64,000 nt of DNA from Escherichia coli O127:H6 str. E2348/69 (GTDB lineage Bacteria; Pseudomonadota; Gammaproteobacteria; Enterobacterales; Enterobacteriaceae), in the NCBI RefSeq assembly GCF_000026545.1, contig NC_011601.1; one strand, given 5' to 3'. Position 1 is the stretch's first letter. The number at the start of each line of letters is the position of its first letter. Below are positions 31,638-44,075 of this stretch, piece after piece. The position numbers and the translations under genes were made by a program. The notes beneath the pieces were generated by a model that saw nothing but the letters and a program-made list of their open reading frames with translations, was not told the origin of the DNA and ran no database searches.

Positions 31638-32120
31638 ATGATAAAGCACCTGGTAGCCCCCCTGATTTTCACCTCGCTAATACTTACTGGCTGCCAGTCC
31701 CCTCAGGGAAAGTTTACTCCTGAGCAAGTCGCCGCTATGCAATCTTATGGATTTACTGAATCCGCCGGCGACTGGTCGCTGGGCTTATCAGATGCCATTC
31801 TGTTCGCAAAAAATGACTACAAATTGCTCCCGGAAAGCCAGCAACAAATCCAAACCATGGCAGCCAAATTGGCCTCGATAGGGCTAACACATGCCCGTAT
31901 GGATGGACACACCGACAACTATGGTGAAGACAGTTACAACGAAGTCTTATCATTAAAACGGGCGAATGTCGTGGCCGATGCATGGGCTATAGGTGGACAA
32001 ATTCCGCGCAGCAATCTCACCACACAGGGTTTAGGAAAAAAATATCCCATAGCCAGTAACAAGACCGCCCAGGGCCGCGCCGAGAACCGCCGCGTCGCAG
32101 TGGTGATTACAACCCCTTAA
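31638..32120 (+). CDS. yfiB: OmpA-family outer-membrane lipoprotein YfiB
   Basis: 160-aa ORF with lipobox LTGCQ and an OmpA-like C-terminal domain. Confidence 0.9.
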   Translation: MIKHLVAPLIFTSLILTGCQSPQGKFTPEQVAAMQSYGFTESAGDWSLGLSDAILFAKNDYKLLPESQQQIQTMAAKLASIGLTHARMDGHTDNYGEDSYNEVLSLKRANVVADAWAIGGQIPRSNLTTQGLGKKYPIASNKTAQGRAENRRVAVVITTP

Positions 32121-32323: not shown

Positions 32324-33253
32324 CTACTTATTTCCCTGTCCAATCTTACCCGCAACTGCCTCGGTAAGCTTTACTAAGGTTTCAAGTTCATTTTTGTCTA
32401 ATTTTCTTGCTTCAATAATTTCAGTAGTCTGCCCTGATTCTAGTTTTCCAACTCTTGAGCTAAAATTAATTTTATCCAGAAGGTCTATCATATCGATATC
32501 TTTCTGGCTAGCCATTACAAGCTTTATAATGGCATAGCTTTCCTCACGTGAACGTTTTATTGCCTCGTAATAGCGAAACTCATCCATCGTAACCCGATAT
32601 TGCTTCAAAAAGAAAAATGCGATTAACTCCAAGAAAATCAACACGCCAAAATTAGGGAGAAGATACATTACCTTGGTTACCGCATCATCCTTAGCATCAA
32701 TTACATGTGATTGAGAATAGAAGAAACCTAATCCAACTATTGCAAAACAAACACCGACTAATAAATAAAGACTACCGCGAGAATATATGTTTTTCGCAAG
32801 ACCTTCAGAGCTATTAATCAAACCTTTAAGATAAAAATCCAGAGATTCATCTTCATCAGCAGCAGCCCTTTCCTCTTGAGCCTTCTTGAGTAGTTTTATC
32901 TCATTTATAATATCGACAATATTAAACATCGATGATTTGTCGACTGAATCACTCCCTGTAATTCTCATAAACATTCTTTGGATTGGAGACACACCATAGA
33001 TAATGGTGTAAACGATTACAAATGACACTGCGAATATTGACCTGATAAAGCTCGGCAAATGTGTAAGATCTGCTCTCGCACTGGGAAATAAATAATAAAA
33101 GGTTGAGTCTAATATCCCTGTAGCAAAAATTACATTTGCAACTAGAAAGACTGCACCTATCTCAACTAAATTATAAAAACCACGAGTGCGTACCCTAATG
33201 ACTTTGGCCTCGGTCATTCTTGGAGGTGTTTCGATGGTTGGCTCACTCATCAT
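32324..33253 (-). CDS. Hypothetical 4-TM membrane protein (309 aa), phage cargo of unknown function
   Basis: ORF with four hydrophobic segments and a charged, probably coiled-coil C-terminal region; visibly AT-rich; AGGA RBS; ATG overlaps the integrase stop (ATGATGAGTGA). Confidence 0.6.
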   Translation of the reverse strand: MMSEPTIETPPRMTEAKVIRVRTRGFYNLVEIGAVFLVANVIFATGILDSTFYYLFPSARADLTHLPSFIRSIFAVSFVIVYTIIYGVSPIQRMFMRITGSDSVDKSSMFNIVDIINEIKLLKKAQEERAAADEDESLDFYLKGLINSSEGLAKNIYSRGSLYLLVGVCFAIVGLGFFYSQSHVIDAKDDAVTKVMYLLPNFGVLIFLELIAFFFLKQYRVTMDEFRYYEAIKRSREESYAIIKLVMASQKDIDMIDLLDKINFSSRVGKLESGQTTEIIEARKLDKNELETLVKLTEAVAGKIGQGNK

Positions 33254-33602
33254 ATAATCCTGTTAAATTAGAAATAGGGTTAAGAGTTACAGCTTCTTCT
33301 AAATGATCTGGTGCAAAATGAGCGTATCTCATGGTTTCCCTAATGTTAGAATGGCCCAAGATTCGTTGCAGTACTAAAATGTTCCCACCATTCATCATAA
33401 AGTGACTCGCAAATGTATGACGTAACACATTCGTTTTTTGCCCTTCAGCTAACTCTATATCGGTCAGAGCGAGCATTTTCTTGAACTCCTGATAGCAGGG
33501 GTGGAACATTTTTCCCTGTAAAGGAGCCAACTCGTCATATAGCCACCGAGGGATCGGTACTGTACGATTCTTCTTTCCCTTGGTTTGGGAGAAGGCTCTG
33601 CA
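33243..33602 (-). pseudogene. Tyrosine recombinase (phage integrase) C-terminal fragment
   Basis: ...TKGKKNRTVPIPRWLYDELAPLQGKMFHPCYQEF...RHTFASHFMMNGGNILVLQRILGHSNIRETMRYAHFAPDHLEEAV; the N-terminal two-thirds of the gene is absent. Confidence 0.8.
33568..33593. other. Left inversion crossover site (pix/gix/cix-like, 26 bp)
   Basis: ttcttctttcccTTggtttgggagaa; inner half-site is the exact inverted copy of the inner half of the right site at 35454-35479. Confidence 0.6.
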
Positions 33603-35114: not shown

Positions 35115-35480
35115 TTAACAGCCTAACGCTAAAAATGAAGCGCCGAGGCCAGGAGTACTGGCTCTGGATATAAATTTAACCGGGTCGGGACTAAAACCTG
35201 CACAGGCAATATAACCAACAGCCCCGCTATCTGGTGTGTAGTCTTGTGAGACCAAAACACGCAGACATCTGTTTGGAAATGCAATCGGGAAATGGGTTAC
35301 TACATCCTGTGCAATGCCTGGTGCGCCGATTGAGCCCCACTGAAGAATAAAACCTGATGGAAATTTTTGATATCCAGTACCTGAAACAGAAAGCGTGAAG
35401 CTACCCATATCAGGTATCTGATTCGCCCCTGTCCCTACATTCCTTTTAGCCGCTTCTCCCAAACCAACGTTTAAGAAAAT
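35115..35480 (-). CDS. Alternative tail fibre C-terminal variable domain
   Basis: Reverse ORF 35115..35564 reads ...[17 protein letters not shown]... across the right crossover site; the part inside the invertible segment ends near 35480. Confidence 0.65.
35454..35479. other. Right inversion crossover site (pix/gix/cix-like, 26 bp)
   Basis: ttctcccaaaccAAcgtttaagaaaa, imperfect dyad, immediately upstream of the invertase gene. Confidence 0.65.
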
Positions 35481-35533
35481 GTAGTTTTCCCCCCTAGCTG
35501 GCATCATTTGGGCTTTTGCATGAGGGAAAACAA

Positions 35534-36112
35534 ATGCAGGTTGGCTATGTGCGCGTATCAACAAATGAACAAAATACCGCGCTACAGCGTGACGCGCTGG
35601 AACGGTCGGGATGTGAGCTAATTTTCGAGGATAAAATCAGCGGTAAATCGACAAACAGGCCAAGGTTAAATCGCGCACTCAGGCAACTTAATGCCGGTGA
35701 TACTCTCGTTGTCTGGAAGCTCGACAGGCTCGGGCGTAGCATGCGCCATCTTGTCTCTATGACTGAAGAGCTTCGCCAGCGAGGGGTTAATTTCAGAAGC
35801 CTGACCGACAGTATTGATACCTCAACCCCGATGGGGCGATTTTTCTTTCACATCATGGGCGCTCTTGCAGAAATGGAACGCGAGTTAATCGTCGAACGAA
35901 CCCGCGCCGGGCTGGATGCAGCCCGGGCACAAGGCAGGATCGGAGGTCGTAGGCCGAAGCTGACGCCTGATGAATGGGCTCAGGCTGGCCGGTTGATTGC
36001 GGCCGGAGAATCCCGACAGCGTGTTGCACTGATTTTTGATGTGGGCATATCGACGCTGTATAAAAAATTTCCGGCGACAAATCCCGTTGTGTCAGCCACC
36101 GGCGAACCCTGA
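35534..36112 (+). CDS. Serine-recombinase DNA invertase (Pin/Gin/Hin/Cin family)
   Basis: [38 protein letters not shown]... with catalytic Ser in the VRVST motif and a C-terminal HTH. Confidence 0.9.
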
Positions 36113-36176
36113 CAAATAGCCGCATACAGGCGTAAACCAGACAATATCACTCACCTCAACTAACGGAGTTAAACGG

Positions 36177-37364
36177 ATGAGTGATTATCATCACGGTGTC
36201 GAGGTCGTCGAAATTAACGACGGCACCCGCACAATCTCGACGGTATCAACGGCGGTCGTTGGCATGGTCTGCACAGCCAGTGATGCTGACGCCGGGGCTT
36301 TCCCTCTCAATGAGCCGGTGCTGATTACCAACCCACAAAGCGCCATCGCAAAAGCCGGTACTAAAGGTACCCTGGCAAAATCCTTACAGCTCATCGCTAA
36401 CCAGTCAAAACCGGTTGTCGTTGTTGTGCGTGTCGCGGAGGGTACCGGCGACGGCGAAGAGGCACAGGCGCAAACCATTTCTAACATCATCGGCACCACG
36501 AATGAGAATGGCAAATATACCGGGATGAAAGCGCTGTTAACGGCGAAAGCGGTCACCGGCGTGAAGCCACGTATTCTCGGTGTGCCGGGGCTCGATACTC
36601 AGGAGGTGGCGACCGCGCTTGTCTCCGTGGCTCAGAAGCTGCGCGCTTTCGCCTATGTCAGCGCGTGGGGCTGTAAAACCATTGCTGACGTTATCGCCTA
36701 CCGCGAAAACTTCAGCGCCCGTGAGCTCATGATTATCTGGCCTGACTTCCTCGGGTGGGATACCACGGCCAACGCGACCACAACCAGTTATGCAACAGCG
36801 ATCGCGTTGGGACTGCGCGCAAAAATCGACAATGATACAGGCTGGCATAAAACCCTGTCAAACGTCGGCATCAATGGCGTCACCGGTATCAGTGCGTCGG
36901 TCTTCTGGGATTTGCAGGAATCTGGCACTGATGCCGACCTGCTGAATGAGGCCGGTGTTACGACGCTGATTCGTGCCGATGGTTTCCGCTTCTGGGGTAA
37001 CCGTAATTGCTCCGATGACCCGCTGTTTCAGTTTGAGAACTACACCCGCACCGCACAGGTCATAGCCGACACAATAGCCGAGGGGCATATGTGGGCGAAC
37101 GATAAGCCCATCACCGCGACGTTGATTCGCGACATTATCGACGGCATCAACGCGAAATTCCGCGAGCTGAAAACCGGCGGTTACATCATCGATGCGACGT
37201 GCTGGTTTGACGAAGAGGCCAACAGTAAAGAAACCCTGAAAGCCGGGAAACTGTTTATCGATTATGACTATACGCCGGTGCCGCCACTCGAACACCTGAC
37301 CTTACGCCAGCGCATTACTGATAAATATCTGGCGAATCTTATCTCGTCCGTCAACAGCAAATAA
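36177..37364 (+). CDS. Contractile tail sheath protein (P2 gpFI-like)
   Basis: 395-aa ORF MSDYHHGVEVVEINDGTRTISTVSTAVVGMVCTASDAD..., order and size as P2 FI. Confidence 0.9.
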   Translation: MSDYHHGVEVVEINDGTRTISTVSTAVVGMVCTASDADAGAFPLNEPVLITNPQSAIAKAGTKGTLAKSLQLIANQSKPVVVVVRVAEGTGDGEEAQAQTISNIIGTTNENGKYTGMKALLTAKAVTGVKPRILGVPGLDTQEVATALVSVAQKLRAFAYVSAWGCKTIADVIAYRENFSARELMIIWPDFLGWDTTANATTTSYATAIALGLRAKIDNDTGWHKTLSNVGINGVTGISASVFWDLQESGTDADLLNEAGVTTLIRADGFRFWGNRNCSDDPLFQFENYTRTAQVIADTIAEGHMWANDKPITATLIRDIIDGINAKFRELKTGGYIIDATCWFDEEANSKETLKAGKLFIDYDYTPVPPLEHLTLRQRITDKYLANLISSVNSK

Positions 37365-37376
37365 GGAGCCTGACAA

Positions 37377-37895
37377 ATGGCATTACCGCGCAAGCTCAAA
37401 CTCATGAACCTGTTTATCGATGGGGTGAGTTATCTCGGCGTCGTGCAGTCCGTCACGCTGCCGAAATTAACCCGCAAGCTCGAGAACTATCGCGGCGGCG
37501 GGATGAATGGTTCGGCACCGGTCGACCTCGGCCTCGATGACGATGCGCTGTCGGCTGAAATCTCTCTCGGCGGCTTCCCCGATGACGCTATCTGGTCGTT
37601 ATACGCTGCCACCGGCGCGGCCTCCGTACCGCTACGTTTTGCCGGGTCTTACCAGCGTGATGACACCGGCGAGACCGTGCCGGTTGAGGTTGTTCTCCGT
37701 GGCCGTCAGAAAGAAATCGACCTCGGTGAAGCCAAACAGGGCGAAGACACCGAGTCGAAAATCGCTCTCGCGTGTACCTATTTCAAGCTGACGATGAATG
37801 GCTCGGAACTGGTGGAAATCGACACCGTGAACCTCATCGAAAAAGTGAACGGCACCGACATGCTCGAGGCGCACCGACAAAATATCGGCCTGTAA
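37377..37895 (+). CDS. Tail tube protein (P2 gpFII-like)
   Basis: 172-aa ORF MALPRKLKLMNLFIDGVSYLGVVQSVTLPKL... Confidence 0.9.
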   Translation: MALPRKLKLMNLFIDGVSYLGVVQSVTLPKLTRKLENYRGGGMNGSAPVDLGLDDDALSAEISLGGFPDDAIWSLYAATGAASVPLRFAGSYQRDDTGETVPVEVVLRGRQKEIDLGEAKQGEDTESKIALACTYFKLTMNGSELVEIDTVNLIEKVNGTDMLEAHRQNIGL

Positions 37896-37957
37896 TTTAT
37901 GCCCCGGTCAGCATGGCTGGCCGGGCATCCTGAAACCAGAATTTAACGAGAAATATC

Positions 37958-38230
37958 ATGGATAAAACTAACGAAAATATCGTCACTCTGATTAAACCCA
38001 TTAAGCGCGGTGAGCAGGTTATTACTGACGTCACCCTGTTAAAACCGTGTGCCGGAACCCTTCGCGGTGTCAGCCTGGCATCAGTCGCAAACTCTGACGT
38101 CGATGCGCTGATTAAAGTGCTGCCGCGCATGACCATGCCGTCGCTGACCGAGCAGGAAGCCGCCGCACTGGAGCTGCCCGACCTGCTGTCGTTTGCCGGT
38201 AAGGTGGTCGGTTTTTTGTCACCGAGTTAG
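37958..38230 (+). CDS. Tail assembly chaperone gpE
   Basis: 90-aa ORF between FII and T; contains the slippery heptamer T-TTT-TTG at 38212-38218. Confidence 0.8.
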   Translation: MDKTNENIVTLIKPIKRGEQVITDVTLLKPCAGTLRGVSLASVANSDVDALIKVLPRMTMPSLTEQEAAALELPDLLSFAGKVVGFLSPS

Positions 38231-38391
38231 GCGGCGTAATCTTCCCGCAAAAACTCACGGTCGATGACCTGATGGCTGACATAGCGGTAATTTTCCACTG
38301 GTCGCCATCAGACCTGTATCCCATGAGCCTGACCGAACTCGTCAACTGGCGCGAAAAAGCGCTACAGCGAAGCGGAAACACGAATGAGTAA
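37958..38391 (+). CDS. gpE+E' extended product via programmed -1 frameshift (predicted)
   Basis: -1 frame after TTTTTTG is open to TAA at 38389-38391, overlapping the start of the tape-measure gene. Confidence 0.5.
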
Positions 38392-40813
38392 TAACCTCAA
38401 ACTCGAAGTGCTGCTGAAAGCTGTCGACCAGGCGACCCGACCCTTTAAAGCGATCCAGACGGCGAGCAAATCGCTGTCTGGCGATATCCGCACGACTCAG
38501 CAATCCCTGCGTGATTTGAATGGTCAGGCATCGAAAATCGACGGTTTTCGCAAAACCAGCGCACAACTGGCGGTAACCGGACAGGCACTGGAAAAGGCAA
38601 AACAGGAAGCCGCCGAGCTGGCGGTGCAGTTTAAAAACACGGAACGGCCAACGGCGGCACAGGCCAGAGTGCTGGAATCAGCAAAGCGTTCGGCTGAAGG
38701 GTTACAGGCAAAATATAACAGCCTCACCCAATCGGTGAAGCGGCAACAGACCGAGCTCGGCAAAGCGGGGATTAATACGCGCAATCTGTCGAATGATGAA
38801 AGCCGCCTGAAAAACTCTATCAATGAAACTACCGCACAACTTAACCGCCAGCGTGAAGCACTGGCGCGGGTCAGCGCGCAACAGGCAAAACTCAGCGCAG
38901 TACAAAAACGCTATCAGGCAGGAAAGGCACTGGCTGGAAATGCGGCATCGATGGGCGCTGCCGGGATAGGCATGGCAACGACCGGAGCGCTTGCCGGTGT
39001 TGCACTGATGAAGCCCGGTTATGATTTTGCTCAGAAAAACTCTGAGTTACAGGCCGTTCTCGGTGTCGGTAAAGACTCAGCTGATATGGTGGCGCTCCGC
39101 AAACAGGCGCGCCAGCTCGGTGACAACACCGCCGCGTCGGCTGATGATGCTGCCGGTGCTCAGATTATTATTGCAAAGGCTGGCGGCGATGCTGCGGCTA
39201 TTCAGGCCGCTACCCCCGTAACACTCGATATGGCGCTCGCAAACCGTCGAACGATGGAAGAGAACGCCGGGTTATTGATGGGGATGCGCTCTGCCTTCCA
39301 GCTTTCAAACGATAAGGTCGCCCATATCGGTGATGTTCTGTCGATGACGATGAACAAAACCGCCGCCGACTTTGACGGCCTGAGTGATGCGCTGACTTAT
39401 GCCGCGCCGGTGGCGAAAAATGCCGGGGTCAGCATCGAAGAAACAGCCGCAATGGTCGGCGCACTGCATGACGCCAAAATTACGGGATCGATGGCGGGTA
39501 CGGGGAGCCGTGCCGTATTAAGTCGCCTGCAGGCTCCAACGGGCAAAGCGTATGACGCCATTAAAGAGCTCGGCGTCAAAACGGCTGATGGTAAGGGGAA
39601 CACACGTCCAATATTTACCATCCTGAAAGAAATGCAGCGGAGTTTTGATAAAAACAACCTCGGCACCGGCCAGCGTGCCGAATATATGAAAACCATTTTC
39701 GGTGAAGAGGCCAGCTCGTCGGCTGCGGTACTCATGACCGCTGCCTCGAGCGGGAAATTAGACCAGCTTACCGCTTCCCTTAAAGCATCGGATGGCAAAA
39801 CCGCTGAGCTGGTGAAGGTCATGCAGGATAACCTCGGCGGCGATTTTAAAGAGTTTCAGTCTGCGTATGAAGCGGTAGGAACCGACCTGTTTGACCAGCA
39901 AGAGTCATCATTAAGAAAGCTGGTACAAACGACGACAGGGTATGTATTGAGGCTCGATAGCTGGATCCAAAAGAACAAATCTCTTGCCACCACGCTGGGT
40001 GTCATTACGGCGGCAGCTGTCGGTATTGTGGGGATGATTGGTGCCATTGGCCTTGTATCGTGGCCGGTAATTACTGGCATTAACGCCATCATTTCGGCGG
40101 CTGGTGCGCTTGGTGCGGTCTTTACGACAATCAGTGGCGGGGTCATTGCGGCTATTGGTGCTATTACGTGGCCTGTCGTGGCGGTAGCGGCGGCTGTTGT
40201 CGCTGGCGCGCTGCTTATCCGTAAATACTGGGAGCCTGTCAGCGCATTCTTTGCCGGTGTGGTCGAGGGGCTCATGAGTGCCTTTGCGCCGGTCGGGGAA
40301 ATGTTCGCCCCGCTGGCACCCATTTTCGACGGTCTCGGCGAAAAACTTCGCGGCGTCTGGCAGTGGTTTAAAGACCTGATAGCGCCGGTGAAAGCGACTC
40401 AGGACACGCTCAACAGTTGTCGTGATGTTGGGGTTATGTTCGGTCAGACGCTGGCCGATGCACTGCTGATGCCGCTTAACGCCTTTAACAAGCTGCGAAG
40501 CGGGATTGACTGGGTGCTCGAAAAACTCGGCATTATCAACAAAGAATCCAGCTCACTTGACCAGACTGCGGCGAAAGCCAATGCAGCGACGCAGAACGGT
40601 TACAGCCCGGCAATCAGCGCATACAACAGCTATCAGCCGGTCACGGCACCCGCCGGTAAAACCTACATCGACCAGAGTCGGCCAATCTATCAAATCACCG
40701 TGCCGGGCAATGGTATGCCGGGAGATCGGTTGGGTAATGATTTGCAGGATGCATTAGAAAAGTATGAGCGCGAGAAGCGCGCCAAAGCCCGCGCAAGCAT
40801 GATGCATGACTAA
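38384..40813 (+). CDS. Tail tape measure protein (P2 gpT-like)
   Basis: 809-aa ORF with coiled-coil N-terminus and Gly/Ala-rich hydrophobic central region. Confidence 0.9.
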   Translation: MSNNLKLEVLLKAVDQATRPFKAIQTASKSLSGDIRTTQQSLRDLNGQASKIDGFRKTSAQLAVTGQALEKAKQEAAELAVQFKNTERPTAAQARVLESAKRSAEGLQAKYNSLTQSVKRQQTELGKAGINTRNLSNDESRLKNSINETTAQLNRQREALARVSAQQAKLSAVQKRYQAGKALAGNAASMGAAGIGMATTGALAGVALMKPGYDFAQKNSELQAVLGVGKDSADMVALRKQARQLGDNTAASADDAAGAQIIIAKAGGDAAAIQAATPVTLDMALANRRTMEENAGLLMGMRSAFQLSNDKVAHIGDVLSMTMNKTAADFDGLSDALTYAAPVAKNAGVSIEETAAMVGALHDAKITGSMAGTGSRAVLSRLQAPTGKAYDAIKELGVKTADGKGNTRPIFTILKEMQRSFDKNNLGTGQRAEYMKTIFGEEASSSAAVLMTAASSGKLDQLTASLKASDGKTAELVKVMQDNLGGDFKEFQSAYEAVGTDLFDQQESSLRKLVQTTTGYVLRLDSWIQKNKSLATTLGVITAAAVGIVGMIGAIGLVSWPVITGINAIISAAGALGAVFTTISGGVIAAIGAITWPVVAVAAAVVAGALLIRKYWEPVSAFFAGVVEGLMSAFAPVGEMFAPLAPIFDGLGEKLRGVWQWFKDLIAPVKATQDTLNSCRDVGVMFGQTLADALLMPLNAFNKLRSGIDWVLEKLGIINKESSSLDQTAAKANAATQNGYSPAISAYNSYQPVTAPAGKTYIDQSRPIYQITVPGNGMPGDRLGNDLQDALEKYEREKRAKARASMMHD

Positions 40814-40824
40814 GGAGACTGATT

Positions 40825-41289
40825 ATGATGCTGGCATTAGGTATGTTTGTTTTTATGCGTCAGACGCTGCCCTACCAGAGCATGCAGCGCAGCGCGGATT
40901 ATAGCTGGGCGTCAAACTCTCGCATCGGGAAGCGTGACGCTTTTCAGTATCTCGGCGAGGGGGAAGATAAAATCACCCTGAGCGGTGACCTGTATCCTGA
41001 GCTGACCGGCGGTAAGCTCACGATGCTGGCGCTTTATGCAATGGCTGAACAGGGGCGCGCATGGCCGCTTATCTCTGGCTCAGGCTGGATTTACGGGATG
41101 TTTGTTGTCAGTAATGTCTCGGAGACCGGCACGGTATTTTTTGAGGATGGGACGCCACGAAAAATCAGCTTCACCCTGTCACTGACCCGTGTCGATGAGT
41201 CGCTCGCCGCGGTGTATGGCGATATTGGAAAACAGGCCGAAAGTCTGGTCGGGAAAGCTGGCGATCTGCTGTCGATGGTGGGGGCGTAA
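40825..41289 (+). CDS. Tail protein gpU-like
   Basis: 154-aa ORF MMLALGMFVFMRQTLPYQSMQRSADYSWAS... following T. Confidence 0.85.
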   Translation: MMLALGMFVFMRQTLPYQSMQRSADYSWASNSRIGKRDAFQYLGEGEDKITLSGDLYPELTGGKLTMLALYAMAEQGRAWPLISGSGWIYGMFVVSNVSETGTVFFEDGTPRKISFTLSLTRVDESLAAVYGDIGKQAESLVGKAGDLLSMVGA

Positions 41290-41291
41290 TC

Positions 41292-42464
41292 ATGCTGGAT
41301 ATTATCACCGGCGCGGGTGCCACGCTGACGCCCGACTTTATGCTGACACTGGAAAGCAAAGATATCACCGGCAATATCAGTGACCGGCTGATTAACCTCT
41401 CGATGACGGACAATCGGGGTTTTGAGGCCGACCAGCTCTACATCGAGCTCGACGATACTGACGGTCTGGTCGCATTGCCGATTCGCGGTGCGGTGCTGTC
41501 GCTGTATCTCGGGTGGAAAGGTTTCTCTCTGGTCAGCAAGGGGCGATTTACCGTCGATGAGGTAGAGCACCGGGGGGCGCCGGATACGGTAACCATTCGC
41601 GCCCGGGGTGCGGATTTTCGCGGGACGCTTAATTCCCGTCGTGAGGAGTCATGGCATGACACCACGCTCGGCGCAATCGTCAGCTCGATAGCTGAGCGGA
41701 ACAAGTTAACGGCCAGCGTCACTGATTCTCTTGCGGGGATCCAGATTCCGCATATCGACCAGTCTCAGGAATCCGACGCCGTTTTCCTGACTCGCCTCGC
41801 AGAACGCAACGGCGGTGCGGTCTCAGTGAAAGCGGGTAGATTGCTGATGCTCAAAGCGGGAAGCGGTACCACTGCCAGTGGAAAAGCTATTCCTCAAATT
41901 ACCATCCAGCGCGGTGACGGTGACCGGCATCAGTTTGCCATTGCCGACCGTGGCGCTTACACCGGCGTAACCGCTAAGTGGCTGCACACTAAAGACCCGA
42001 AACCGGCGAAACAAAAGCAGACAGTGAAGCTGAAACGTAAGCCCAAAGAGCAACACCTCCGGGCGCTACAGCACCCGAAAGCAAAACCAGTGAGCAGTAA
42101 AGTCACGGCCAAAAAGCAAAAAGAGCAGGAAGCCCGCGAGGGTGAATACATGGCCGGTGAGGCTGACAACGTTTTCGCGCTGACGACCATTTACGCGACA
42201 AAGGCGCAAGCGATGCGTGCAGCTCAGGCGAAGTGGGATAAATTGCAGCGTGGGGTTGCGGAGTTCTCCATTATGTTAGCGACCGGCCGCGAGGATATTT
42301 ACCCCGAAACGCCGGTCAGGGTCTCAGGCTTTAAGAGCGTTATAGACGAGCAAGCATGGATAATCAGCAGGGTGACCCATAATCTCGGTGGGAATGGCTT
42401 CACAACGGCTGTAGAGCTTGAGGTGATGCTTTCGGATGTAGAATATGACACCGACGAATCTTGA
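41292..42464 (+). CDS. Tail protein gpD-like (late control gene D)
   Basis: 390-aa ORF following U. Confidence 0.85.
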   Translation: MLDIITGAGATLTPDFMLTLESKDITGNISDRLINLSMTDNRGFEADQLYIELDDTDGLVALPIRGAVLSLYLGWKGFSLVSKGRFTVDEVEHRGAPDTVTIRARGADFRGTLNSRREESWHDTTLGAIVSSIAERNKLTASVTDSLAGIQIPHIDQSQESDAVFLTRLAERNGGAVSVKAGRLLMLKAGSGTTASGKAIPQITIQRGDGDRHQFAIADRGAYTGVTAKWLHTKDPKPAKQKQTVKLKRKPKEQHLRALQHPKAKPVSSKVTAKKQKEQEAREGEYMAGEADNVFALTTIYATKAQAMRAAQAKWDKLQRGVAEFSIMLATGREDIYPETPVRVSGFKSVIDEQAWIISRVTHNLGGNGFTTAVELEVMLSDVEYDTDES

Positions 42465-42540
42465 TTATACAAACAAAACTTGCAAATGTAAGATTCAAGT
42501 TTATTATCCCCCTCAAGTCAGCAAGGAGAGGGAAGAAATT

Positions 42541-42759
42541 ATGATGCACTGTCCGCTATGTCAGGATGCAGCACACGCACGATCAAGCCGGTACCTGAGC
42601 ACTGAAACGAAAGAGCGCTACCACCAGTGCCAGAACATCAACTGCGGTTGCACTTTCGTCACCCACGAGAGCCTTGCTCGTTTTATCGTGAAGCCAGGAG
42701 AAATTGAACCCGCCCCACCCCACCCGTCTAAATACCAACAACATCAGCTCTGGCTTTAA
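42541..42759 (+). CDS. ogr: Late-gene transcription activator Ogr (zinc finger)
   Basis: MMHCPLCQDAAHARSSRYLSTETKERYHQCQNINCGCTF... with a Cys4 arrangement; ATG at 42541 preceded by aaggagag. Confidence 0.9.
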   Translation: MMHCPLCQDAAHARSSRYLSTETKERYHQCQNINCGCTFVTHESLARFIVKPGEIEPAPPHPSKYQQHQLWL

Positions 42760-42796
42760 ATCAAAGGCCTGCTTTGCAGGCCTTCTTGTATCAAAC

Positions 42797-43519
42797 TTAG
42801 ATTGGTAATGAAAAAGCTATCGCCTTGCAGATATGTTGCTTTGTTAACGCAGGATGTGTTGAAGCAAAAAGCGATAAAAAGCTTTTAGCTTCAACCGAAT
42901 CATCATTAAGCGAAATATTATCTTTGATGAATGGATGAAGTGCGATTCCAGCGCTCATAGATAACGGCACATAGTTGATGAATATATCTTCTTTTGTGAG
43001 ACCTAGCTGGTTTGCTTGTGCTTCAAATGAATTAGCATCTAAATAATCACGTATACGTTCTTTGGCCTCTGGTCGGAGTCTCGATTCTTGACGCGGCAGA
43101 GAAAGCATCTTATCAATATCTCCCCATGAGATAGGAACCTCAAAATAGCCACCACCTTCTTCCTCTAGAGGTGCCGGGAAATTCACATAAAAATAGTTTT
43201 TTTGCTGTGTAGGGTCGTTCATGGACTGACGATGATAGTTATAAATACTTCTAATACGGTTGGCCTTGTTATGATGCCGAGCATTTCGAATAACAAGCAT
43301 CATTAATAATTCAGGTTTCAAATACCAGTCAGGCTCTAATCCATTGCTTTGCATGTTGTCATACAAATTATGAAAAGCATTAAGTTGTGTATTCAGGCCC
43401 GATTCTAAATTGCCAATTGCTTCAGCACGATCAATAGCCAACAAACGCTGTAGTGACCAGTTAGACTCTAATAAAACCCGAAAGGCCTGTGCAAGATCTT
43501 CAAAAGAGTGGGAAAGCAT
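42797..43519 (-). CDS. Hypothetical soluble protein (240 aa), phage cargo; possible HEPN-like Rx4H motif
   Basis: AT-rich ORF with AAGGA RBS between ogr and attR; contains ...LVIRNARHHNKANR... (R-x4-H pattern). Confidence 0.6.
   Translation of the reverse strand: MLSHSFEDLAQAFRVLLESNWSLQRLLAIDRAEAIGNLESGLNTQLNAFHNLYDNMQSNGLEPDWYLKPELLMMLVIRNARHHNKANRIRSIYNYHRQSMNDPTQQKNYFYVNFPAPLEEEGGGYFEVPISWGDIDKMLSLPRQESRLRPEAKERIRDYLDANSFEAQANQLGLTKEDIFINYVPLSMSAGIALHPFIKDNISLNDDSVEAKSFLSLFASTHPALTKQHICKAIAFSLPI

Positions 43520-43724: not shown

Positions 43725-44075
<351 letters not shown>

What the first reader, a model, noticed from the sequence alone, without database searches (positions are those of the whole stretch)
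36080..36176. Retained ogr next to an intact tail operon: candidate Ogr-dependent late promoter upstream of FI
ogr is intact and has its own RBS, and FI to D are intact. About 65-90 bp upstream of the FI start, overlapping the invertase 3' end, lies the inverted repeat TGTCAG...CTGACA (36090-36113). The spacing does not fit the canonical TGT-N12-ACA element, so this is only a tentative activator site. The tail genes may still be inducible, for example by a co-resident satellite or helper phage.
Basis: inference. Interest (0 to 1): 0.25.

Follow-up and report, generated by a model that had tools for sequence, protein, structure and literature searches.

The report
P2-type late promoter before tail-sheath gene

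Summary
The window is E. coli O127:H6 E2348/69. A P2/186-family prophage remnant lies between yfiB and rplS.

The region 36082-36176 aligns about 70% with two experimentally mapped late promoters, P2 PF and phage 186 pJ. The upstream control stretch aligns at about 46%.

It is centred about 56 bp upstream of the start site inferred by alignment (36152-54). In 75 FI-upstream regions chosen only by FI protein similarity, 68 have TGT-N12-CCA and 3 have CGA.

ogr is intact: 72 aa, Ogr_Delta zinc finger, 61% identical to P2 Ogr. FI to D are intact, including the E/E' slippery site.

Full-length copies of the same prophage sit at the same site in other strains. They have the identical promoter and Ogr, and one differs by 12 SNPs in 8.2 kb. 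So the "retention" reflects a recent deletion, whose junction lies in an invertase crossover site.

Verdict: a new member of a known kind, of low interest. Ogr dependence is inferred, not shown.

The parts
36086..36105 (+). Predicted Ogr/B-type activator binding site, GTTGTGTCAGCCACCGGCGA. It contains TGT(36088-90)-N12-CGA(36103-05), a partial dyad cGTTG-N14-gAACC.
   Evidence: It aligns column for column with the annotated 186 B-protein site GTTGTGCCAGACATCATCCA (U32222 14091-14110) and lies inside the equivalent of the P2 PF activator site (AF063097 17555-17583, equal to window 36082-36110). TGT is 99% conserved, and the 3' half is CCA in 58/68 and 68/75 relatives and CGA in 5/68 and 3/75.
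36090..36114 (.). It is real but is not a functional unit in its own right.
   Evidence: Sequence. It is perfect in only 16/68 pattern-selected and 5/75 unbiased relatives, with no compensatory changes. The window holds 330 comparable repeats. Its RNA fold has z = +0.75.
36111..36121 (+). Conserved block GACAAATAGCC, at about -43 to -33 (the -35 region of the late promoter).
   Evidence: It is invariant in P2, 186, PSP3 and S164. The AAATAGC core is conserved across FI-selected relatives, while the ACA varies to ATA or TCA. The annotated 186 pJ promoter begins at the equivalent TAGCC.
36140..36155 (+). Conserved -10 and start-site block GACAATATCACTCACC. The weak -10 is CAATAT (36142-47) and the inferred start site is 36152-36154.
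   Evidence: The position follows from alignment to the mapped start sites of P2 PF (17626-28) and 186 pJ (14159). The consensus scan found no sigma-70-type promoter on this strand, as expected for an activator-dependent promoter.
36163..36179 (+). Conserved leader and ribosome-binding site ACGGAGTTAAACGG, followed by the FI ATG (36177).
   Evidence: It is nearly invariant in all relatives.
35534..36112 (+). Serine DNA invertase (Hin/Gin/Cin type). Its last 9 codons run through the activator site, and no terminator separates it from FI.
   Evidence: Pfam Resolvase 2.7e-50 and HTH_7 9e-13. No terminator-like site was found after 35836 on the + strand. RefSeq calls it a recombinase family protein.
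36177..42464 (+). F operon: FI sheath 36177-37364, FII tube 37377-37895, E 37958-38230 (E' by -1 frameshift at GGTTTTTTG, 38212), T tape measure 38384-40813, U 40825-41289, D 41292-42464.
   Evidence: Pfam hits for every product. There are 0-1 amino-acid differences from the full prophage of PCN033. The slippery site matches that of P2.
42480..42507 (+). Candidate promoter of ogr itself, TTGCAA-16-TATTAT.
   Evidence: The consensus scan gives 9 of 12 matches. P2 has an annotated promoter in the same D-ogr interval. No test was done.
42541..42759 (+). ogr: a 72-aa zinc-finger late activator of the Ogr/B/Delta family.
   Evidence: Pfam PF04606, 1.2e-21, full-length match. It is 61% identical to P2 Ogr with no gaps and carries C4, C7, C30 and C35. 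The same protein (WP_000972008.1) is found in full-length prophages.
42764..42784 (+). GC-rich hairpin AAGGCCTGC-TTT-GCAGGCCTT just after ogr, a likely terminator of the F/ogr transcript.
   Evidence: Read directly. P2 has an annotated terminator in the same position. The scan did not call it because the T-run is short.
33568..33593 (+). Hybrid invertase crossover site, TTCTTCTTTCCC-TT-GGTTTGGGAGAA, at the int'/H' deletion junction.
   Evidence: the left half matches int of PCN033 and the right half matches H of FORC 064, with the switch exactly at the central TT.
35454..35479 (+). Right crossover site of the invertible tail-fibre segment, TTCTCCCAAACC-AA-CGTTTAAGAAAA.
   Evidence: It forms an inverted repeat with 33580-33594. 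In PCN033 the segment lies in the opposite orientation and the match breaks at 35453.

Best explanation
Window 36082-36176 is the orthologue of the P2 PF / phage 186 pJ late promoter, which drives the tail operon FI-FII-E/E'-T-U-D and, by read-through, ogr.

Proposed mechanism:
- The zinc-finger activator Ogr, encoded 6.4 kb downstream at 42541-42759, binds the partial dyad TGT-N12-CGA (36088-36105).
- That site is centred about 56 bp upstream of the start site at 36152-54.
- Bound Ogr recruits RNA polymerase through the alpha-subunit C-terminal domain to a promoter that has only a weak -10 (CAATAT) and no usable -35.

Shown here: homology, position, conservation of the blocks, and an intact cognate activator gene. 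Inferred: binding, the start site and Ogr dependence.

The remnant came from a full 186-like prophage that lost about 21 kb, from int to the middle of H. The promoter is unchanged since that deletion.
For: - Alignment: 70-72% identity to P2 PF, 186 pJ, PSP3 and S164 over 95 nt, against about 46% for the 95 nt further upstream versus P2.
- Where homology starts: similarity to phages that lack the invertase begins at 36085-86, exactly at GTTGTG.
- Database annotation: GenBank places the B-protein site, the activator site and the start sites on the aligned columns.
- Family statistics: TGT is 99% conserved. TGT-N12-CCA occurs in 68 of 75 unbiased relatives. TGT lies 88-92 nt before the ATG in 73 of 75, and 89 nt in the window.
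- Uniqueness: the family pattern TTGTG[TC]CA-N8-C[CG]A occurs once in 64 kb.
- Promoter strength: no sigma-70 consensus promoter on this strand.
- Activator: Ogr has a full-length PF04606 match at 1.2e-21 and is 61% identical to P2 Ogr.
- Comparison with intact prophages: the promoter and Ogr are identical in the full-length prophages of PCN033 and FORC 064.
- Literature: Ogr binds inverted repeats centred near -55 and needs contact with the alpha subunit (PMC3152322). The consensus is TGT-N12-ACA and the zinc motif is CX2CX22CX4C (PMC3931495).
Against: - The 3' half-site is CGA. G replaces a C that is 88% conserved and pairs with the invariant G of TGT. Binding may therefore be weaker or differently specified.
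- No isolated, plaque-forming phage in the INPHARED phage collection carries this variant. The best FI match there is about 79%.
- PCN033's copy has a pseudogenised replication gene A, so a functional phage with this exact promoter has not been demonstrated.
- No expression data were examined.
- From my own recollection of Birkeland et al. 1991, P2 late transcription also needs phage DNA replication. The remnant cannot replicate, so the promoter may be silent in place even when Ogr is present.
Confidence: 0.88

Rival explanations
1. The flagged palindrome TGTCAG-N13-CTGACA is itself the activator site, a variant with wider spacing.
For: It is centred at 36102, about -51 from the inferred start site. 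It contains TGT and ACA. It is perfect in 16 of 68 pattern-selected relatives.
Against: - It is perfect in only 5 of 75 relatives chosen by FI protein, and most have just 2-3 of 6 complementary positions.
- Its variable positions change on one arm only. Left position 3 is T or C against an invariant A, and right position 5 is T, G or C against an invariant A.
- The annotated P2 and 186 sites end before the right arm.
- The inner CCA is far better conserved than the outer ACA.
Confidence: 0.05
2. The promoter is structurally intact but functionally silent or crippled in this remnant. Either the CGA half-site weakens Ogr binding, or the remnant lacks the replication and early functions that P2-type late transcription and ogr expression need.
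For: - G at 36104 replaces a C that is 88-96% conserved.
- All early and replication genes are deleted.
- No isolated phage carries this variant.
- From my own recollection of Birkeland et al. 1991, late transcription requires replication, and Pogr needs an early function for full activity.
Against: - The same sequence is kept in full-length prophages in at least 11 other E. coli genomes and in IMG/VR viral contigs of about 30 kb.
- The other late promoters of the same phage also have degenerate 3' halves: PO has ACT and PV has AAA. The lineage therefore seems to rely mainly on the 5' half-site.
- A second ogr-like sequence elsewhere in the E2348/69 chromosome could supply activator in trans.
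Confidence: 0.3
3. The repeat is an RNA hairpin or terminator that ends the invertase transcript.
For: It sits at the invertase stop codon. Relatives without the invertase have a strong terminator at exactly this place, just upstream of GTTGT.
Against: The minimum free energy is -7.1 kcal/mol with z = +0.75, and 155 of 200 shuffles fold at least as well. There is no U-tract, and the scan did not call it.
Confidence: 0.02

Closest known systems
Bacteriophage P2 late promoter PF (AF063097: activator site 17555-17583, start site 17626-28)
   Same: - It holds the same position, immediately upstream of FI.
- It is 70% identical over the promoter.
- It shares the blocks GTTGTG, GACAAATAGCC, GA(A/C)AATAnCACTCACC and ACGGAGTTAAACGGATG.
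- The distance from TGT to the ATG is the same (89-91 nt).
- The downstream operon is the same, with ogr at its end.
   Different: - The 3' half-site is CGA here and CCA in P2, so the dyad shrinks from GGTTG/CAACC to GTT/AAC.
- An invertase ORF reads into the site here. In P2 a terminator and the fun(Z) locus lie upstream.
- Ogr is only 61% identical.
Phage 186 late promoter pJ with its B-protein site (U32222 14091-14110, start site 14159)
   Same: - It is 71% identical.
- Its annotated 20-bp B site aligns exactly with window 36086-36105.
- It shares CCCTGACAAATAGCC and GACAATA.
- The full-length parent prophage has a 186-type early region with CI, CII and Fil.
   Different: - 186 has CCA where the window has CGA.
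- 186 has terminator t45 just upstream, where the window has an invertase gene.
PSP3 FI promoter and P4 Psid/PLL (sites for the Pag and Delta activators)
   Same: They are the same class: activator-dependent promoters with a TGT-N12-ACA dyad near -55. PSP3 has the perfect TGT-N12-ACA. The consensus is cited in PMC3931495.
   Different: The PSP3 spacing to the -40 block differs by 1 nt. P4 promoters were not compared here, and the statement about them rests on the literature only.

Membership tests
P2-family Ogr/B/Delta-dependent late promoter (PF/pJ orthologue) | Located directly upstream of the tail-sheath gene FI, at the head of the FI-FII-E-T-U-D operon | tested here: met
   FI starts at 36177. 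All six products have the matching Pfam families, and RefSeq annotates them accordingly.
P2-family Ogr/B/Delta-dependent late promoter (PF/pJ orthologue) | Sequence homology to experimentally mapped PF/pJ across the activator site, -35 region, -10 region and leader | tested here: met
   70-72% identity over 95 nt, against about 46% for the flanking control. Four conserved blocks are present.
P2-family Ogr/B/Delta-dependent late promoter (PF/pJ orthologue) | Partial dyad TGT-N12-ACA centred near -55 | tested here: inconclusive
   The element is TGT-N12-CGA, centred at about -56 from the inferred start site. The 5' half is perfect. The 3' half matches ACA at 1 of 3 bases and the family-typical CCA at 2 of 3. 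P2 PF itself is TGT-N12-CCA.
P2-family Ogr/B/Delta-dependent late promoter (PF/pJ orthologue) | Weak core promoter (no consensus -35), as expected for activator dependence | tested here: met
   The scan finds no sigma-70-like site on the + strand in 35400-36400. The -10 is CAATAT and the -35 region is AGCCGC.
P2-family Ogr/B/Delta-dependent late promoter (PF/pJ orthologue) | Cognate Ogr/Delta-family zinc-finger activator encoded by the same element | tested here: met
   PF04606 at 1.2e-21, the CX2CX22CX4C motif, and 61% identity to P2 Ogr.
P2-family Ogr/B/Delta-dependent late promoter (PF/pJ orthologue) | Transcription depends on the activator and on the RNA polymerase alpha C-terminal domain | not testable with these tools
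   This needs a reporter or in vitro transcription assay. The literature basis is PMC3152322 and PMC11434276.
Intrinsic terminator of the invertase gene | Stable GC-rich hairpin followed by a U-run | tested here: not met
   -7.1 kcal/mol, z = +0.75, no U-run.

The most novel reading that the evidence does not exclude
In this invertase-carrying lineage the late promoter has lost its usual insulation. Most relatives have a strong terminator abutting the activator site, whereas here the invertase gene reads straight through the site into FI. Invertase genes of this type are expressed in lysogens (my recollection, not tested here). Read-through could therefore give basal, Ogr-independent transcription of the tail operon and of ogr at its end. 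That would set up an Ogr positive-feedback loop, perhaps tempered by the weakened CGA half-site. In the E2348/69 remnant, which has no repressor or lysis genes, this could make sheath, tube and Ogr production constitutive and available to cross-activate co-resident P2-type phages or P4-type satellites.
Probability: 0.08. Interest if true: 0.35.

Novelty: new member of a known kind. Interest (0 to 1): 0.1.

Why it matters
It matters little beyond correct annotation. The result assigns the regulatory element of a prophage remnant in the reference EPEC strain E2348/69. It also shows that the textbook TGT-N12-ACA consensus is, for PF promoters, really TGT-N12-CCA (GTTG-N14-CAAC), with a rare CGA variant.

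If the remnant's Ogr is expressed, it could trans-activate other P2-type prophages or P4-type satellites in the same cell. It cannot build tails alone.

Tried and rejected
- The repeat as a significant feature: rejected, because 330 comparable repeats occur in the window.
- The repeat as an RNA hairpin or terminator: rejected.
- A known RNA family: none in the region.
- Covariation between the two arms of the repeat: none found.
- Exact TGT-N12-ACA matches: 11 in the window, none near FI, so this pattern alone is uninformative.
- A cultured phage with the same promoter variant: none in the INPHARED phage collection.
- The primary papers (Julien & Calendar 1995; Van Bokkelen 1991; Birkeland 1991; Pountney 1997; Iguchi 2009): not held in the library. 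Statements from them are marked as my own recollection or taken from secondary citations.
- Pfam and PADLOC scans of the two unnamed cargo genes: nothing credible.

Full report
**Origin and context.** The window is 100% identical to the chromosome of E. coli O127:H6 strain E2348/69. The finding lies in a P2/186-family prophage remnant inserted between yfiB (31638-32120) and rplS (43725-44072).

RefSeq annotation and ORF listing give this gene order:
- a 308-aa hypothetical gene;
- a C-terminal integrase fragment;
- the C-terminal third of tail fibre H;
- two tail-fibre assembly genes and an alternative H end, together forming an invertible segment;
- a serine DNA invertase (35534-36112);
- FI, FII, E/E', T, U, D and ogr;
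- a 239-aa hypothetical gene.

Pfam confirms every tail product, the invertase and Ogr.

**The observation.** TGTCAG (36090-95) and CTGACA (36109-14) form a perfect 6-bp inverted repeat with a 13-nt spacer. It lies 63-87 bp upstream of the FI ATG and overlaps the invertase stop codon.

The repeat is not statistically remarkable. The window contains 330 perfect 6-bp inverted repeats with 8-20 nt spacers, against 198 +/- 19 in shuffles. It does not form a meaningful RNA hairpin: -7.1 kcal/mol, z = +0.75. No Rfam family matches there.

**What it is.** A distant DNA search against phage genomes showed that phages lacking the invertase (186, PSP3 and many others) become alignable with the window exactly at 36085-86, at GTTGTG.

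Two experimentally characterised records carry annotations here:
- Phage 186 marks a B-protein binding site (14091-14110), promoter pJ and its initiation point (14159).
- P2 marks the PF activator binding site (17555-17583) and start site (17626-28).

In the alignment:
- the 186 B site GTTGTGCCAGACATCATCCA corresponds to window 36086-36105, GTTGTGTCAGCCACCGGCGA;
- the P2 site corresponds to 36082-36110;
- both mapped start sites fall on window 36152-36154.

Over 36082-36176 the window is 70-72% identical to P2, 186, PSP3 and S164. The preceding 95 nt align to P2 at about 46%.

Four blocks are shared:
- GTTGTG;
- GACAAATAGCC, at about -43 to -33;
- GA(A/C)AATAnCACTCACC, the -10 region and start site;
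- ACGGAGTTAAACGGATG.

The consensus scan finds no sigma-70-type promoter on this strand. That fits an activator-dependent promoter.

**The activator element.** It is centred about 56 bp upstream of the inferred start site.

P2 PF itself reads TGT-N12-CCA, and PSP3 reads TGT-N12-ACA.

I collected two sets of relatives from IMG/VR:
- Pattern-selected set, 68 unique upstream regions. TGT is 99% conserved. The 3' half is CCA in 58, CGA in 5 (the window's invertase-linked lineage) and ACA in 2.
- Unbiased set, chosen only by FI protein similarity: 80 loci and 76 unique upstream regions. TGT-N12-CCA occurs in 68 of the 75 that have a TTGT in range, and CGA in 3. TGT lies 88-92 nt before the ATG in 73 of 75, and 89 nt in the window.

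The family element is therefore better written GTTG-N14-CAAC. The window has GTTG-N14-GAAC, in which G36104 replaces an 88%-conserved C.

The family pattern TTGTG[TC]CA-N8-C[CG]A occurs once in the 64-kb window, at 36087. Plain TGT-N12-ACA occurs 11 times, none near FI.

- Its left arm is the 3' part of the conserved 5' half-site (TTGTGTCAG).
- Its right arm is the start of the separate -40 block (CTGACAAATAGCC).
- It is perfect in 16 of 68 pattern-selected relatives and only 5 of 75 unbiased ones.
- Variable positions change on one arm only.
- The outer ACA becomes ATA or TCA in about half of the relatives.

**The activator.** ogr (42541-42759) encodes 72 aa with cysteines at positions 4, 7, 30 and 35 (CX2CX22CX4C). 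It gives a full-length Ogr_Delta match at 1.2e-21 and is 61% identical to P2 Ogr without gaps.

It has an AAGGAG ribosome-binding site. It also has a candidate promoter of its own, TTGCAA-16-TATTAT at 42480-42507. P2 has an annotated ogr promoter in the same interval. A GC-rich hairpin follows at 42764-84.

According to the literature, Ogr binds inverted repeats centred near -55 and must contact the RNA polymerase alpha subunit (PMC3152322; see also PMC11434276). The consensus and the zinc motif are as cited in PMC3931495.

**"Retained" or just young?** Full-length versions of the same prophage occupy the same yfiB-rplS site in strains PCN033 and FORC 064. They have a 186-type early region (CI, CII, Fil), capsid, lysis and baseplate genes, and the identical Ogr protein (WP_000972008.1).

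The PCN033 copy has the identical PF region. It differs from the window by 12 substitutions in 8,248 bp, giving 0-1 amino-acid changes per gene.

In one search, only the three E2348/69 assemblies match the window right across the int'/H' junction and the 308-aa gene. The intact state of FI-D and ogr therefore needs no selective explanation. The deletion is recent.

The other late promoters of the full phage also have degenerate 3' halves:
- PO/PP: TTGTGTCAG...ACT
- PV: TTGTGCCAT...AAA

This lineage therefore appears to lean on the 5' half-site.

**Function in the remnant.** The promoter is structurally intact, but its activity is untested. The remnant lacks V, W, J, I, most of H, and R, S and X, so it cannot make tails alone. 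It also lacks all early and replication functions.

From my recollection of Birkeland et al. 1991 (a paper not held here), P2 late transcription also needs phage replication, and Pogr needs an early function for full activity. A second ogr-like sequence exists elsewhere in the E2348/69 chromosome, so activation in trans is conceivable.

One real difference from most relatives is the lack of insulation. They carry a strong terminator abutting GTTGT. Here the invertase ORF reads through the activator site, and no terminator intervenes. Read-through into FI is therefore possible, though this is inference.

**Side finding: how the remnant arose.** The deletion junction is a hybrid invertase crossover site:

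| Site | Sequence |
|---|---|
| Junction in E2348/69 (33568-33593) | TTCTTCTTTCCC-TT-GGTTTGGGAGAA |
| Quasi-site inside int of the full prophage | TTCTTCTTTCCC-TT-CGTTTTAGTGAA |
| Left crossover site in H | TTCTCAAAAACC-TT-GGTTTGGGAGAA |
| Right crossover site (35454-79) | TTCTCCCAAACC-AA-CGTTTAAGAAAA |

The left half of the junction matches the int quasi-site and the right half matches the H site. The switch falls exactly at the shared central TT. The right site has AA at its centre, which makes it inverted relative to the left site.

Two sites with the same central dinucleotide in direct orientation predict deletion. The roughly 21-kb loss was therefore most likely made by the prophage's own invertase. 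This is an inference. It resembles the use of quasi-sites described for P1 Cin, which I cite from memory.

**Verdict.** This is an ordinary PF/pJ-type late promoter in an uncharacterised 186-like prophage lineage. I rate it a new member of a known kind, of low interest.

Noticed in passing
window 33568-33593 (junction); 35454-35479 (right site); L209 about 8790-8815 (int quasi-site); L128 about 8985-9010 (H site): The prophage deletion junction is a hybrid invertase crossover site. Its left half comes from a quasi-site inside int and its right half from the left crossover site in tail fibre H, with the exchange at the shared central TT. The roughly 21-kb loss of early, capsid, lysis and baseplate genes was probably made by the prophage's own serine invertase acting on directly oriented sites.
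   Followed up: partly
window 36000-36176, compared with relatives: Most P2-family phages have a strong GC-hairpin and T-run terminator directly abutting the GTTGT activator half-site. In the invertase-carrying lineages that terminator is replaced by the invertase 3' end, so PF is not insulated from upstream transcription.
   Followed up: partly
window 36104; L127 7690-7712 and 14994-15016: This prophage lineage has degenerate 3' half-sites at all three late promoter regions: PF has CGA, PO/PP has ACT and PV has AAA. P2 has CCA, CCA and CAA. Its Ogr has His at position 42, where P2 has the Tyr42 that the literature implicates in alpha-subunit contact (my recollection).
   Followed up: no
window 42797-43519 (-) and 32324-33253 (-): Two prophage-borne genes of unknown function sit at the two ends of the element, one after ogr (239 aa) and one overlapping the end of int (308 aa). 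Both are also present in the full-length prophages. They have no Pfam hit and no credible PADLOC hit, and could be cargo or defence genes.
   Followed up: partly
L127 13641-14984 (PCN033 full prophage): A DUF4062-domain gene occupies the S-V intergenic slot of the full-length prophage, the position of orf30 in P2. It is lost in E2348/69.
   Followed up: no
E2348/69 chromosome outside the window: A distant DNA search with ogr finds two places in the E2348/69 chromosome, so a second Ogr-family gene is present elsewhere. Its location was not determined.
   Followed up: no
window 13057-18072 (-), 21068-21206 (-), 25612-25737 (+), 55022-55384 (+): Ordinary chromosomal RNA features: an rRNA operon (5S, 23S, a tRNA, 16S), the RyfD sRNA next to clpB, the pheA leader, and the tmRNA ssrA.
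   Followed up: no
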